This document shows positions 39,175-51,668 of a stretch of 64,000 bases of DNA, piece after piece. Position 1 is the stretch's first letter; each line of letters starts with the position of its first letter. Position numbers and translations under genes: made by a program. The stretch lies in the NCBI GenBank assembly GCA_035945795.1, contig DASYZU010000020.1, positions 7,199 through 71,198 of the forward strand, in the 5' to 3' direction. This DNA comes from Terracidiphilus sp. Lineage in GTDB: Bacteria; Acidobacteriota; Terriglobia; Terriglobales; Acidobacteriaceae. The notes under the pieces are model-generated. The model was not told the origin of the DNA. It worked only from the letters and a program-made list of their open reading frames with translations, and did not search any database.

Positions 39175-39220
39175 GGGTATCCCATCCTGGCCGCGTTTCC
39201 TGTGGCCAGGTGGGAAACAC
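39175..39220 (-). repeat. REP-like palindromic element (copy 1)
   Basis: Minus strand GTGTTTCCCACCTGGCC-acaggaaacgc-GGCCAGGATGGGATACCC. Shares its flanks with the copies at 49017 and 51620. Confidence 0.7.
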
Positions 39221-48381: not shown

Positions 48382-49797
48382 GTGATGGGATGCAAATTCG
48401 TGTCGCGGGACGGTAAGGGGTTCGCGGTACACTTCTTTGAAGAGTTGGAGGCAAGCACCATGCGAACAACGGCTGCGGACAATGCGCAGGTGGAGGCGGG
48501 CGTCCGGTTTGGCGCGGCGCGGCGGCGGACGCTGGAGTTGTGCGCAGGGCTGACGGCCGAGGACATGATGGTTCAGTCGTGCCCTGAGGCGTCGCCGGCC
48601 AAGTGGCATCTGGCGCACACGGCCTGGTTCTTCGAATCGTTTGTGCTGCGGGAGTTCGTGTCCGGGTACCGGCCGTTCGATGCGGATTTTCATTGGTTGT
48701 TCAACAGCTATTACGAGGGCTTTTCAGCGTTCCCCGAGAAGCGGCTGCGGTCTTCCTTTTCCCGGCCGGCGCTGGAAGATATCCTGCGCTACCGGGAGCA
48801 CGTGGACCTGGGCATCGAACGCTTGCTCGAAGCGGGAGCGGAACCGGAGGCGCTCAGGCGAATCGAACTGGGCGTAAACCACGAGGAACAGCACCAGGAG
48901 CTTTTGCTCACTGACATTCTTCACGCGTTTTTTACCAATCCGTTGCGGCCGGTTTACAAGAATGGTGCGAATCTGGATTCCCAGATGGCTGAGTTAAAGG
49001 GTGGAGGTTCCTCGGTTCCCAGATCTGAAGATCCAGATCTGGGGCACCCGAACGGAAGGCCGGCGCTGGAATTCCAGCAGTTTGAGGGTGGCATGATCGA
49101 GGTTGGATGCGACGGCAAAGGCTTCTGCTTCGACAATGAGCTTCCGCGTCACCGCGCGTGGCTGGAACCGTTTTCGATTGCACGGCGCCTGGTAACCTGC
49201 GGCGAGTTTGCCGAGTTCATGGCCGATGGCGGCTACCGCAGGCCGGAGCTTTGGCTTTCGGCGGGATGGAACGCGGTGAAGAGCAACGACTGGCGTTCGC
49301 CGCTCTATTGGACGAACGAAGGCGATGCATGGCGCGTCTTTACCCTGCGCGGCTATTTGCCGCTGGAAGAGGTGGAGTCGTCGCCCGTCAGCCACGTGAG
49401 CTTCTATGAGGCCGATGCTTATTCGCGCTGGGCGGGCCGGCGGCTGCCGACAGAGTTTGAGTGGGAGACCGCGGCCGAGGGGCAACCCGTGGAAGGGAAC
49501 CTGCTCGATTCGGGGCTGCTGGTCCCGGTGTCCCCAACAGCACGCGTCTTAAAGCAGTGCCCCACCCCGCTATTCGGGGATTGTTGGGTGTGGACGGCCA
49601 GCGCATACCTGGGATATCCGGGATTCCGGGCGCTCGAGGGAGCGCTGGGCGAGTACAACGGCAAGTTCATGAGCGGGCAGATGGTGCTGCGCGGCGGTTC
49701 GTGCGTTACGCCGGCCACGCATATTCGCGCCAGTTACCGGAATTTTTTTGCCCCTGAGACACGCTGGCAATTCTCAGGAATTCGTTTGGCTTTTTAG
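48382..49797 (+). CDS. egtB: Ergothioneine biosynthesis sulfoxide synthase EgtB
   Basis: QSCPEASPAKWHLAHTAWFFE, FNSYY, HEEQHQEL (Fe triad), and FGE-sulfatase domain RLPTEFEWE, YNGKFM, VLRGGS, YRNFF, WQFSGIRLA. Confidence 0.95.
   Translation: MMGCKFVSRDGKGFAVHFFEELEASTMRTTAADNAQVEAGVRFGAARRRTLELCAGLTAEDMMVQSCPEASPAKWHLAHTAWFFESFVLREFVSGYRPFDADFHWLFNSYYEGFSAFPEKRLRSSFSRPALEDILRYREHVDLGIERLLEAGAEPEALRRIELGVNHEEQHQELLLTDILHAFFTNPLRPVYKNGANLDSQMAELKGGGSSVPRSEDPDLGHPNGRPALEFQQFEGGMIEVGCDGKGFCFDNELPRHRAWLEPFSIARRLVTCGEFAEFMADGGYRRPELWLSAGWNAVKSNDWRSPLYWTNEGDAWRVFTLRGYLPLEEVESSPVSHVSFYEADAYSRWAGRRLPTEFEWETAAEGQPVEGNLLDSGLLVPVSPTARVLKQCPTPLFGDCWVWTASAYLGYPGFRALEGALGEYNGKFMSGQMVLRGGSCVTPATHIRASYRNFFAPETRWQFSGIRLAF
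49017..49049 (+). repeat. REP-like palindromic element (copy 2), in frame inside egtB
   Basis: TCCCAGATCTG-aagatc-CAGATCTGGGGCACCC, a perfect 10-bp stem, translated as VPRSEDPDLGHP in the inter-domain linker. Confidence 0.7.
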
Positions 49798-49834: not shown

Positions 49835-50899
49835 ATGACAACTTTTGCTTTCCCCACATTTGCTGGACACATTGCAGAACAAGTCGCAGACGAACTTGCC
49901 GCAAGAGAACCCGTTGTTGCGGAGCCAGTTTCGGAACCGATCGTTGACGGGCATGTTGCCGCGGCCGTGCGCGCCGGGCTGAACTCCCGGCCCAAGCGGT
50001 TGCCTCCGTGGCTGTTTTACGACAAGGCCGGGTCGCGATTGTTTGACGAAATCACCGAGCGGCCAGAGTACTACTTGACGCGCACGGAGCGCGGCATTCT
50101 GGCAGCCAATGCGGACGCGATGATTGCGCAAGCTGCCGATGGGGCCCGGCTGCGGATTACGGAACTCGGCGCCGGTTCAGCGGACAAGACGCGGATTCTG
50201 CTGAAGGCTGTGGTTGCGCATCAGGGGACAGTGGTCTACGAGCCGGTGGATGTCTCAGCCAGCGCGCTCGAAGCGGCCAAAAAAAGAATCGAGCGCGAGA
50301 TTCCCGAAGTGCTCGTTACCCCGCGGGTGATGGACTACACGCGAGGGAGCGGACGCGGCCTGCATCTGGAGCCAACCCCGGCCGGCGAACGCCGCCTCGT
50401 GCTCTATATCGGCTCCAGCATCGGCAACTTCGAGCCCCGTGAAGCGATGCGGTTGCTGCAACGTGTGCGGGCCGGGCTGAACCCCGGCGACGGGCTGCTG
50501 CTGGGCGTGGACCTGGTGAAGGATGAGGCGACGCTGCTGGCCGCCTATGACGATGCGGCCGGGGTGACGGCTGACTTCAACCTGAACCTGCTGGCGAGAC
50601 TGAATCGCGAACTGGGAGCCGAGTTCCCGCTGGACAGCTTCGAGCACCACGCCGTTTGGAACCAGGTAGAGTCACGGATAGAAATGCACCTCGAGAGCCG
50701 GGTCGCACAGAAGATCTCACTTTCAGCGCTTGATTTGGAAGTGGAATTTGCGCAGGGCGAGACGATCCATACAGAGAACAGCTACAAGTATCGGCCCGGA
50801 CAGGCGGAAGTCACGCTGGCTGCGGCGAGGTTTGTTCCGGCGGGCAGCTGGACGGATGAGCGTGGTTGGTTCGGGGTTTGCGTGGGGCGGGCGGAGTAA
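49835..50899 (+). CDS. egtD: L-histidine N-alpha-trimethyltransferase EgtD
   Basis: KRLPPWLFYDKAGSRLFDEITERPEYYLTRTE, ELGAGSADKT, GSSIGNF, GVDLVKD, AYDDAAGVTADFNLNLL, IEMHL, IHTENSYKY. Confidence 0.95.
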   Translation: MTTFAFPTFAGHIAEQVADELAAREPVVAEPVSEPIVDGHVAAAVRAGLNSRPKRLPPWLFYDKAGSRLFDEITERPEYYLTRTERGILAANADAMIAQAADGARLRITELGAGSADKTRILLKAVVAHQGTVVYEPVDVSASALEAAKKRIEREIPEVLVTPRVMDYTRGSGRGLHLEPTPAGERRLVLYIGSSIGNFEPREAMRLLQRVRAGLNPGDGLLLGVDLVKDEATLLAAYDDAAGVTADFNLNLLARLNRELGAEFPLDSFEHHAVWNQVESRIEMHLESRVAQKISLSALDLEVEFAQGETIHTENSYKYRPGQAEVTLAAARFVPAGSWTDERGWFGVCVGRAE

Positions 50900-50936: not shown

Positions 50937-51254
50937 TTATGCACTCTGTTCCGGTTCCGGCGAAACGTCCTGATCCTGTTTCTCCACGTGCGGGAAATAG
51001 AGCCATCGTAACAGGACATAAACTATGAGCAGCAGGAACACCGACACGAGCAGTTGAGCAAGTATTGACTCGATCAACGCCGCGCGGGGTGCACCAACGG
51101 AATAATTTTCCGAGTACTGCCGTTGCTGTAGCCAAACTGTAATGGGATTGACAGCGACTCTCACTATTTGCGAGATGCCTTGCGATAACAAGAGGCCAAT
51201 AGCGATCGCACCCACAAAACTATCGACAAGTGCGGTCTTCACTCGTTCAAGCAT
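50937..51254 (-). CDS. Small 2-TM membrane protein (paralog B)
   Basis: GAGGAGG RBS, LVDSFVGAIAIGLLL, two hydrophobic helices. Confidence 0.75.
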   Translation of the reverse strand: MLERVKTALVDSFVGAIAIGLLLSQGISQIVRVAVNPITVWLQQRQYSENYSVGAPRAALIESILAQLLVSVFLLLIVYVLLRWLYFPHVEKQDQDVSPEPEQSA

Positions 51255-51609
51255 CTTTCCTCCTCATAAGTTTGTCCCGGTAATTGCGTAAAATGCGCAT
51301 TGGACCTGTGCCGTAGGCCCAGCGCGAAATCAGCCAAGCGCAAGCCAGATTGTTTAATGCAACGGATAGGTCAAAAAGGGATGCTTGCAAGCTCACATTT
51401 CGAGCCGCGTAATCCACAGTGCGGGGGATGTACGGAGGACTATTGGTCGCCACGGCTATGGTCAGGAAGGATAAAACACGGGAAGCGGGATCAAAAAGAG
51501 CTATGAATACGAACTCAATGGCCCCAGCGAGCAATACAGCGATCGCGATAGCGGCGACGTGGGAATCAATCAGGACCTTGCGAAGAGTGGCTTGCATAGT
51601 TTCTGGCAT
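51247..51609 (-). CDS. Small 2-TM membrane protein (paralog A)
   Basis: LIDSHVAAIAIAVLL. The ORF-track start (51666) lies inside a REP-like repeat, so the true start is probably 51609 or 51597. Confidence 0.7.
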   Translation of the reverse strand: MPETMQATLRKVLIDSHVAAIAIAVLLAGAIEFVFIALFDPASRVLSFLTIAVATNSPPYIPRTVDYAARNVSLQASLFDLSVALNNLACAWLISRWAYGTGPMRILRNYRDKLMRRKDA

Positions 51610-51619
51610 TTGAGCATTT

Positions 51620-51668
51620 GTGGAATCCCACCCTTTCGCCAGAATAAAGGCGAAAGGATGGGGCACGG
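51620..51668 (+). repeat. REP-like palindromic element (copy 3)
   Basis: GTGG-AATCCCACCCTTTCGCC-agaataaa-GGCGAAAGGATGGGGCACGG: a GTGG tag followed by an imperfect 14-bp stem. Confidence 0.75.

What the first reader, a model, noticed from the sequence alone, without database searches (positions are those of the whole stretch)
48961..49060. Palindromic repeat inserted in frame in egtB, adding a peptide to the domain linker
Seen: the REP-like copy at 49017-49049 lies in the linker between the DinB-like and FGE-sulfatase domains and reads VPRSEDPDLGHP with no stop. A smaller hairpin ATCTGG-attc-CCAGAT (48971-48986) precedes it, and the linker looks longer than usual. Established: Rickettsia palindromic elements insert in frame into genes and create new peptide segments. 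Inference: the same phenomenon occurs in this lineage, with selfish hairpins generating protein sequence.
Basis: partly seen in the sequence, partly recalled or inferred. Interest (0 to 1): 0.62.

Follow-up and report, generated by a model that had tools for sequence, protein, structure and literature searches.

The report
Hairpin repeat translated inside EgtB linker
A 34-base DNA hairpin, one of about 120 copies in this soil acidobacterium (Terracidiphilus), lies in frame in the flexible linker of the ergothioneine enzyme EgtB and adds 12 amino acids; the same repeat is read through in at least nine other housekeeping genes, so this is a known kind of event (as in Rickettsia) in a lineage where the literature searched does not describe it.

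Summary
At 49016-49049 (+) a perfect 10-bp stem (CCCAGATCTG / CAGATCTGGG), a 6-nt loop and a GCACCC tail lie in frame in an intact type II egtB. They encode V186-P197 (VPRSEDPDLGHP), between the DinB_2 and FGE-sulfatase domains.

The hairpin is a diverged member of a repeat family, (A/T)TCCCAGGTCTC-N6-GAGACCTGGGGCACCC:
- about 120 loci in this genome, 78% of them outside long open frames;
- present in 97 of 101 genomes of the genus;
- found only in the window's own family (most likely Acidobacteriaceae) in a sample of 251 genomes of the phylum;
- stem kept by compensatory changes.

The copy is not strain-specific. Copies of the same stem variant sit in the same linker and the same frame in EgtB of many Terracidiphilus lineages. 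Other lineages read a copy in another frame, in reverse, in tandem, or lack it.

Family copies are also in frame, with Pfam domains on one or both sides, in MetH, PriA, RecG, MnmG, Era, IspE, oligopeptidase B, a CCG/Fe-S oxidoreductase and a helicase-nuclease.

The small upstream hairpin is at chance level and is not conserved. No transposase link was found.

Verdict: a new member of a known kind (intragenic REPs, Rickettsia RPEs). One open point remains: the copy is more conserved than synonymous sites.

The parts
48460..49797 (+). egtB, a type II sulfoxide synthase of 445 aa. It is intact, and the iron-binding His and the YY motif are conserved.
   Evidence: TIGR03440 equivalog, 529 bits. 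PDB 6qki/6o6l/8qf6, E about 1e-129 over the full length. Invariant H50, H53, H141, H145, Y84, Y85 in alignments A1 and A3.
48508..48873 (+). DinB_2 domain, Pfam match at residues 17-138
48958..49065 (+). Interdomain linker, residues 167-202. It is hypervariable in length and sequence among orthologues.
48971..48986 (+). Small hairpin ATCTGG-ATTC-CCAGAT. It is made of the conserved flank ATCTGG plus the start of the spacer. Probably chance.
   Evidence: 139 such hairpins in the window against about 111 in shuffles. z -2.3. Not kept in L034, L035 or L040.
48978..49015 (+). 38-nt spacer that precedes the element. It is homologous to spacers in the P0004 and P0039 genes and diverges at the neutral rate. 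Its first 9 nt (TTCCCAGAT) repeat the 5' end of the element.
   Evidence: 25 of 38 identical to L034. Not recognised by the family HMM even with --max.
49016..49049 (+). REP-like element, family A, CTG/CAG stem-top variant: TT + stem 49018-49027 / loop 49028-49033 / stem 49034-49043 + tail GCACCC 49044-49049. Read in frame as (V)PRSEDPDLGHP.
49084..49794 (+). FGE-sulfatase-like catalytic domain. The Pfam match starts at residue 209.
49835..50899 (+). egtD, histidine methyltransferase (Methyltransf_33), directly downstream. The start codon was chosen by homology.
   Evidence: The same gene order is seen in orthologous contigs.

Best explanation
The palindrome at 49016-49049 is a diverged copy of a short hairpin repeat family confined, in the phylum sample, to the window's own family (most likely Acidobacteriaceae). 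The family consensus is (A/T)TCCCAGGTCTC - 6-nt loop - GAGACCTGGGGCACCC.

The copy lies inside the coding sequence of a functional type II EgtB, in the length-tolerant linker between the DinB-like and FGE-like domains. It is translated in frame and contributes about 12 residues.

It belongs to a minor stem variant (CTG/CAG at the stem top). In this genome only this copy carries that variant, but it is multi-copy in other genomes of the genus.

Inferred history: a copy was inserted in an ancestor of a large Terracidiphilus clade, inherited vertically, and has since drifted. It now differs at 4-5 of 34 positions from the P0017/P0039 copies, including one compensated stem pair.

Inferred reasons it is tolerated:
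- the linker accepts almost any hydrophilic insert;
- the element has no stop codon in five of its six frames and encodes Pro/Gly/Ser-rich peptides.

What is shown: family membership, in-frame position, intact host gene, presence in orthologues, and other in-frame hosts.

What is inferred: that the element arrived by transposition-like insertion (enzyme unknown), that the peptide is made and is neutral for the enzyme, and that this copy stems from a single ancient event.
For: **Family.**
- The core TGGGGCACCC occurs 126 times in 5.27 Mb.
- There are 120 non-redundant HMM loci at E<=0.01, mostly singletons.
- The consensus is in 97 of 101 genomes of the genus, with 0 hits to the reversed control. 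In a 251-genome sample of the phylum it is found only in the window's own family.
- The stem covaries: 93.5% of cells pair, and 22 cells carry double changes against 4.0+/-1.8 in shuffles, 0 of 500 as high.

**This copy.**
- Compared with the consensus it has two compensated stem pairs and one loop change.
- The CTG/CAG variant is present in 43 of 101 genomes, up to 13 copies each. In the window's own genome it is found only in egtB.

**Host gene.** It is intact.

**Orthologues.**
- Peptides of the PRSE.PDLGHP type are in the same linker in about 13 of the 120 best homologues. PRSQ.RDLGHP (the canonical stem) is seen only in more distant ones.
- At the DNA level the hairpin is present in L034, L036, L037 and L040. 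The upstream spacer is homologous in L034 and L040.
- G033 lacks the segment but keeps orthologous flanks.

**The same thing elsewhere in this genome.** Copies lie in frame in MetH, PriA, RecG, MnmG, Era, IspE, oligopeptidase B, a CCG/Fer4 oxidoreductase and a PD-(D/E)XK helicase-nuclease, with Pfam domains on both sides of, or spanning, the copy in eight of them. The RecG loop shows presence, absence, tandem and reversed copies across the genus.

**Open frames.** 85 of 120 copies are open in 5 or 6 frames.
Against: - No mobilising enzyme was identified. The six PF01797 (Y1 transposase) homologues are not flanked by family copies.
- No target-site duplication or terminal inverted repeats were seen, and no closely related filled/empty pair was available, so insertion as such is inferred from the patchy distribution.
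- The linker's history is not cleanly tree-like. The closest relatives (P0003, P0005; 86-87% identity) read one copy in another frame without the spacer. 'One ancient event' may therefore be too simple.
- Translation of the peptide was not checked.
- The AlphaFold model was too poor (mean pLDDT 53) to show that the segment is exposed.
Confidence: 0.85

Rival explanations
1. Hot-spot model. The linker is hit again and again, and the window's copy is an independent, fairly recent insertion rather than an inherited one.
For: Across the genus the same linker holds copies in frame 1, in frame 2, in reverse orientation (P0036), in tandem (P0031) and with nested inserts (L006, P0024, P0037). On the EgtB tree the states need 8-10 changes each. 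The RecG loop behaves the same way.
Against: The window's genome has no other CTG/CAG-type copy that could serve as a source. All of about 13 frame-1 copies in the closer clade are of this minor variant, which by rough totals makes up roughly 6% of family copies in the genus. The upstream spacer is homologous in P0004 and P0039. The copy has several private substitutions.
Confidence: 0.15
2. Exaptation. The hairpin (as DNA or mRNA structure) or its peptide now has a function at the domain boundary and is kept by selection. Candidate functions are a translational pause that helps the two domains fold, or a binding site for a host factor.
For: The element is 79-88% identical between lineages whose 4-fold sites are only 54-65% identical (binomial P 0.008 to 2e-5). 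The adjacent spacer diverges neutrally. One stem pair follows the path G-C -> G.T -> A-T. The stem is still perfect, at -23.9 kcal/mol. Family copies lie at domain boundaries in MetH, PriA and the CCG/Fer4 oxidoreductase as well, but inside a single domain in oligopeptidase B, MnmG and Era.
Against: Many functional-looking orthologues lack the segment (G033, Chloracidobacterium) or read it in a different frame (P0003, P0005), so the peptide cannot be essential. Conservation could come from hairpin-templated repair, from conversion by other copies, or from mixing independent near-consensus insertions into the comparison. There is only one clear compensated pair.
Confidence: 0.15
3. Chance palindrome, or an ordinary ancestral linker motif that has nothing to do with the genome-wide repeats.
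For: AGATCT-type palindromes are common short words. The copy ranks only in the lower half of the family hits (24.6 bits).
Against: There were 0 matches in 100 shuffles. 29 of 34 positions match the family consensus, including the non-palindromic GCACCC tail, and four of the five differences form compensated pairs. Orthologues carry near-consensus copies at the same place. Distant EgtBs lack the segment.
Confidence: 0.02
4. Assembly or binning artefact that placed a repeat inside egtB.
For: The genome is a 128-contig draft with 4.5% estimated contamination.
Against: The element is internal to a 131-kb contig. It keeps the reading frame. Homologous copies are present in independent assemblies from ENA, JGI, NCBI and Logan.
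Confidence: 0.01

Closest known systems
Rickettsia palindromic elements (RPEs; Ogata et al. 2000, as reviewed in PMC10969869 and cited in PMC3733652)
   Same: A dispersed palindromic repeat is found many times in frame inside unrelated, apparently functional housekeeping genes. It adds a peptide segment at permissive sites. Several families coexist in one genome.
   Different: The classical RPE-1 is about 100-150 bp, whereas this element is 34 nt. The lineage differs (free-living soil Acidobacteriaceae, not a reduced intracellular genome). There is no sequence relation. Here about 8% of copies are intragenic, against nearly half for some RPE families.
Intragenic REPs of the GTAG/CGTC super-families (Di Nocera, De Gregorio & Rocco 2013, PMC3733652)
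   Same: These are 20-40-bp stem-loop repeats, mostly intergenic, with a minority inside ORFs that encode 10-30 extra residues. Replication and repair genes are striking among the hosts (there UvrD/Rep, RecBCD, PolA; here PriA, RecG and a UvrD-like helicase-nuclease). Single and tandem copies both occur.
   Different: This element has no GTAG or CGTC tag. Its conserved tail is 3' GCACCC, with a 5' (A/T)T. Copies are singletons rather than inverted dimers. No REPtron was found. In that paper the only acidobacterial element named in the passages read is a TIR family of Koribacter.
REP/REPIN-RAYT systems (E. coli, Pseudomonas)
   Same: A short imperfect palindrome, with hundreds of copies, stem covariation and conservation across a genus.
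   Different: There are no REPIN doublets (one pair within 300 nt). There is no RAYT flanked by the repeats.
Bacterial MITEs that fuse in frame with ORFs (ERIC, Correia/NEMIS, Nezha; PMC10969869)
   Same: Non-autonomous repeats that can create in-frame fusions or insertions.
   Different: MITEs are 70-300 bp with terminal inverted repeats and target-site duplications. None of these features is seen here.

Membership tests
REP (repetitive extragenic palindrome), broad sense | A 20-40-nt imperfect palindrome able to form a stem-loop | tested here: met
   34 nt with a 10-11-bp stem. -23.9 kcal/mol for this copy and -20.9 for the consensus, z -5.3 and -6.6.
REP (repetitive extragenic palindrome), broad sense | Many dispersed copies, mostly outside genes | tested here: met
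   120 loci. 93 of 120 are not spanned by 50 or more open codons on both sides.
REP (repetitive extragenic palindrome), broad sense | Stem maintained by compensatory variation among copies | tested here: met
   22 double-change cells against 4.0+/-1.8 in shuffles. 93.5% of cells paired against 12-55% for slid partners.
GTAG/CGTC-tagged REP super-families | A GTAG or CGTC tetranucleotide at one end of the stem-loop | tested here: not met
   In the consensus nnATCCCAGGTCTC...GAGACCTGGGGCACCC neither tag is present on either strand.
REP/REPIN-RAYT system | A RAYT (PF01797) gene flanked by inverted REPs (a REPtron) | tested here: not met
   There are six PF01797 matches. None has family copies within 1.5 kb apart from two marginal hits more than 1 kb away.
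REP/REPIN-RAYT system | Copies arranged as inverted doublets (REPINs) | tested here: not met
   Only 1 of 77 neighbouring pairs lies within 300 nt, and that pair is in direct orientation.
Rickettsia palindromic elements | In-frame insertion into functional ORFs that adds a peptide | tested here: met
   EgtB plus nine other genes, with Pfam domains on both sides of, or spanning, the copy in eight of the nine.
Rickettsia palindromic elements | Sequence homology to an RPE family, and Rickettsia lineage | tested here: not met
   The lineage is Terracidiphilus, within the window's own family. The element is 34 nt. No Rfam family matched. No direct alignment to RPE sequences was made.
MITE | Terminal inverted repeats, a target-site duplication, 70-300 bp | tested here: not met
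   34 nt. The flanks of aligned copies are not conserved or duplicated.
EgtB (type II, Chloracidobacterium-like) | DinB_2 plus FGE-sulfatase architecture, a pass of the EgtB equivalog model, and egtD next door | tested here: met
   egtD (Methyltransf_33) lies downstream.

The most novel reading that the evidence does not exclude
The intragenic hairpins are not just tolerated junk. They are kept at the nucleic-acid level for longer than it takes synonymous sites to saturate, and some sit at domain boundaries (EgtB, MetH, PriA). In that reading they are a functional structured element inside coding regions, for example a programmed translation pause or a docking site for a host factor. The peptide would be a by-product and can be read in any of five frames in different lineages.
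Probability: 0.15. Interest if true: 0.75.

Novelty: new member of a known kind. Interest (0 to 1): 0.5.

Why it matters
This shows that RPE-like 'repeat-to-peptide' events are not a quirk of reduced intracellular genomes. They are common in a large group of free-living soil bacteria.

Hundreds of public Terracidiphilus genomes and metagenome contigs record a natural experiment. The same 34-nt element is read in five frames, in tandem, reversed, with nested inserts or decayed, in the same loops of EgtB, RecG and other enzymes.

That material can be used in three ways:
- to map permissive insertion sites in these enzymes;
- to study how linkers gain length;
- to test whether hairpins inside genes are under selection of their own.

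For annotation, it explains odd low-complexity segments (…DLGHP, …RPGAP, …ETWGT, GAPGLDFETW…) in acidobacterial proteins and the many spurious small ORFs built on these repeats.

Tried and rejected
- **AlphaFold2 on a 56-row alignment.** Mean pLDDT was 53 and the whole FGE domain was poorly modelled. It was not used to judge exposure of the segment.
- **Codon-usage log-odds classifier for coding context.** Separation on 150-nt windows was too weak. It was replaced by spanning open frames plus Pfam. Five further long spanning ORFs looked non-coding on inspection of their translations and were not counted.
- **'The 38-nt spacer is a decayed older copy'.** The family HMM does not see it even with --max. 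The TTCCCAGAT start is not shared by the homologous spacers of L034 and L040. It is kept only as a weak possibility (about 0.25).
- **'P0003-type single copy arose by a 38-nt deletion between the 9-nt direct repeats'.** This is compatible with copy identities (27 of 34 to the window's element). However, its junctions and left arm match the frame-2 copies of P0029 and P0031 equally well. Left open.
- **Rfam.** No family matched the element.
- **RAYT association.** None found.
- **Literature.** No description of this family, or of in-frame repeats in Acidobacteriaceae, was found in the searchable library.

Full report
**What is there.** The window is contig C20:7199-71198 of a 5.27-Mb, 128-contig genome with 58.5% G+C. 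Source names on close homologues place it in Terracidiphilus, which the report takes to be in Acidobacteriaceae.

The ORF at 48460-49797 (+) is an intact EgtB:
- It passes the NCBIfam equivalog TIGR03440 (529 bits, cut-off 360).
- It has DinB_2 at residues 17-138 and FGE-sulfatase from residue 209.
- It aligns over its whole length with the crystallised type II EgtB of Chloracidobacterium thermophilum (6qki, 6o6l, 8qf6; E about 1e-129).
- The iron-binding histidines and the YY motif are invariant in 20- and 56-row alignments.
- egtD (Methyltransf_33) follows it.

Relative to the crystallised enzyme, the only large difference is an interdomain linker about 19 residues longer.

**The palindrome.** CCCAGATCTG-AAGATC-CAGATCTGGG lies at 49018-49043, followed by GCACCC. 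There were no matches in 100 shuffles. The RNA fold is -23.9 kcal/mol with z -5.3.

**It is a member of a repeat family.**
- The 10-mer TGGGGCACCC occurs 126 times in the genome.
- The flanks sort into two hairpin families that share a 5' TCCCA and a 3' TGGGGCACCC. Family A is (A/T)TCCCAGGTCTC-N6-GAGACCTGGGGCACCC. Family B has variable stems of the type CCCACCCTTCGC…GCGAAGGATGGGGCACCC.
- A family-A HMM finds 120 non-redundant loci at E<=0.01. They are almost all singletons.
- The egtB copy scores 24.6 bits (E 8.7e-5 genome-wide; 1.4e-9 within the linker).
- It differs from the consensus at five of 34 positions. Four of these are two compensated stem pairs (G-C to A-T, and C-G to G-C). The fifth is in the loop.
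- Across 73 copies the stem covaries: 93.5% of cells are paired, and there are 22 double-change cells against 4.0+/-1.8 in shuffles (0 of 500) and 3-10 for slid partners.
- No Rfam family matches.
- The consensus is present in 97 of 101 genomes of the genus, at 0-112 copies with up to 2 mismatches. The reversed-pattern control gives 0.
- In a sample of 251 genomes from 161 genera of the phylum, it occurs only in the window's own family, in three genera.

**Where the copies lie.**
- 93 of 120 are not spanned by any frame that stays open for 50 codons on both sides. These are intergenic or at gene ends.
- Fourteen are spanned by 100 or more open codons on both sides.
- For ten of these, including egtB, the host is a recognisable gene:
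  - MetH, between S-methyl_trans and Pterin_bind;
  - PriA, between the 3'BD and the helicase core;
  - RecG, between DEAD and Helicase_C;
  - oligopeptidase B, inside the propeller;
  - MnmG, inside GIDA;
  - a CCG/Fer4 oxidoreductase;
  - Era, inside the GTPase domain;
  - IspE, which also carries a family-B copy;
  - a PD-(D/E)XK helicase-nuclease.
- Pfam domains lie on both sides of the copy in six of the nine other hosts and a single match spans it in two; for the helicase-nuclease only the C-terminal part was scanned.
- The other long spanning ORFs look non-coding on inspection of their translations.
- Five reading frames are used: PRSQ.RDLGHP, SQVSKSRPGAP, IPGLK.ETWGT, GAPGLDFETWD and VPQVS.LRPG. 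The sixth frame carries a stop in the consensus.
- 85 of 120 copies are open in at least five frames.
- All the encoded peptides are rich in Pro, Gly and Ser.

**Is the egtB segment strain-specific? No.**
- Among the 120 best homologues (68-87% identity), the linker between TNPLRP and FDNE ranges from 38 to 67 residues.
- Dozens of these homologues carry repeat-derived peptides. About 13 have PRSE.PDLGHP-type segments. Others have SQVS.SRPGAP-type segments (frame 2), decayed versions, a reversed copy (P0036), two copies in tandem (P0031), or copies with a nested second insert (P0024, P0037, P0104; L006).
- More distant homologues carry PRSQ.RDLGHP (P0001/G021, P0058, P0062, P0077, P0110).
- Others have (GTRDQ)n-type low-complexity repeats, or nothing.
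- DNA fetched for ten genes shows the hairpin itself. L036 and L040 both have TCCCAGGTCTGAAAATCCAGACCTGGGCCACCC. L037 has a TCCG/CGGA stem. L034 has a partly broken copy. L038 has a consensus copy in frame 2. L039 has two copies.
- Gene order (DUF5666, TPR, egtB, egtD) is the same in all of them.
- G033 (78% identity) has orthologous flanks and neither the spacer nor the element. The net difference is 60 nt.

**Age and origin of this copy.**
- 'E' after 'PRS' and 'P' before 'DLG' correspond to a CTG/CAG stem top instead of the canonical CTC/GAG.
- That variant is a real sub-family. It has exact matches in 43 of 101 genomes, up to 13 per genome. In the window's genome the egtB copy is the only one.
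- By rough totals, the variant makes up only about 6% of family copies in the genus. Yet it accounts for every frame-1 copy in the closer EgtB clade.
- The 35-38-nt spacer upstream is homologous in the window, P0004 and P0039.
- I therefore read this copy as inherited from one old insertion, not as a recent hit.
- There is a complication. The nearest relatives (P0003, P0005-8; 99% SH-aLRT clade) lack the spacer and read a single copy in frame 2. MAFFT places all copies in one block. One old insertion followed by flanking indels that change its frame is possible. So is turnover by repeated insertion. I could not decide between these.

**An unexplained point.**
- The element is 79-88% identical between the window and L034, L040, L036 and L037.
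- 4-fold degenerate sites of the same genes are 54-65% identical (binomial P 0.008 to 2e-5).
- The neighbouring spacer is 66% identical to L034, which is the neutral level.
- One stem pair reads G-C in L036 and L040, G.T in L034, and A-T in the window and L035.
- This may reflect selection on the hairpin, hairpin-templated repair, or hidden non-orthology.

**The rest of the finding.** The small hairpin at 48971-48986 is a 6-bp stem of a kind that occurs 139 times in the window, against about 111 in shuffles. It is not conserved in orthologues. The spacer begins with TTCCCAGAT, a 9-nt repeat of the element's 5' end. However, the HMM does not recognise it, and the homologous spacers lack that start, so 'older decayed copy' remains weak.

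**Mechanism of spread.** This is unknown. The genome has six PF01797 homologues, and none is flanked by family copies. There are no doublets, no terminal inverted repeats, no target duplication, and no GTAG or CGTC tag. The element works like a REP but fails the REPtron, REPIN and tag criteria.

**Generality.** The RecG loop repeats the egtB picture across the genus. It holds a consensus copy in this genome, decayed copies in G024 and G014, a nested insert in G018, two tandem copies in G009, a reversed copy in G015, and no copy in about a dozen other genomes.

**Comparison with what is known.** In-frame palindromic repeats are established for Rickettsia RPEs. Di Nocera et al. (PMC3733652) described them for GTAG/CGTC REPs in Opitutus, Thauera, Xanthomonas and other genera, with an excess in replication and repair genes; PriA, RecG and a helicase-nuclease are among the ten hosts here. 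A 2024 review still treats RPEs as the extreme case and asks whether other prokaryotes do the same (PMC10969869). I found no description of this family, or of in-frame repeats in Acidobacteriaceae, in the searchable literature.

**Verdict.**
- It is a new member of a known kind, of moderate interest.
- It has one testable twist: conservation of the hairpin inside coding sequence.

Noticed in passing
window 39175-39220 (-) and 51620-51668 (+): Two copies of the sister family B. They share the TCCCA…(A)TGGG(G/A)(C/T)AC frame but have different, longer stems (CCCACCTGGCCAC… and CCCACCCTTTCGCC…GGCGAAAGGATGGGGCAC). The spurious ORF 51247-51666 (-), which starts 'MPHPFAFILAKGW', is built on the second copy.
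   Followed up: partly
own genome C81:71379-71455 (ispE): A family-B copy and a family-A copy lie in tandem. Both are read in frame inside IspE (…GIPPFEQKALEGWGTQ…RRIPGLKSETWGTQL…).
   Followed up: partly
L006 (G002 egtB linker); proteins P0024, P0037, P0104; L080 (G018 recG): A second small element is nested inside the right arm or loop of family-A copies. It is about 25 nt and gives peptides such as STGSGQALG, FDKLRAGSG and FGKLRTGAG. This is a repeat that lands within a repeat, still in frame.
   Followed up: no
L007, L009, L010, L013, L016 (egtB linkers of other Terracidiphilus); own MnmG (C53:~69700) and the ORF at C30:9673: Runs of CAGGGAW-type heptamers are translated as GTRDQ, GIRDQ or GTREQ repeats. 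They fill the same EgtB linker in other lineages and lie next to family-A copies in this genome. This is a second way in which repeats become linker peptide.
   Followed up: no
own genome C5:21142-21498, C85:109679-110005, C56:27979-28290, C18:24641-24838, C67:23856-24170, C101:13755-14072: Six PF01797 (Y1 transposase / RAYT-like) homologues. Two of them have an internal TGA. None is flanked by family-A copies. Their own flanking hairpins were not examined.
   Followed up: partly
genus-wide: Family-A copy number varies from 0 to 112 per genome among 101 genomes of one genus. Some genomes (for example G013) hold many identical copies, which suggests recent bursts.
   Followed up: no
window 48382-48459: The longest egtB ORF starts at GTG 48382. 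Homologues and the protein collection start at ATG 48460 (445 aa). The upstream 26 codons are probably not translated.
   Followed up: partly
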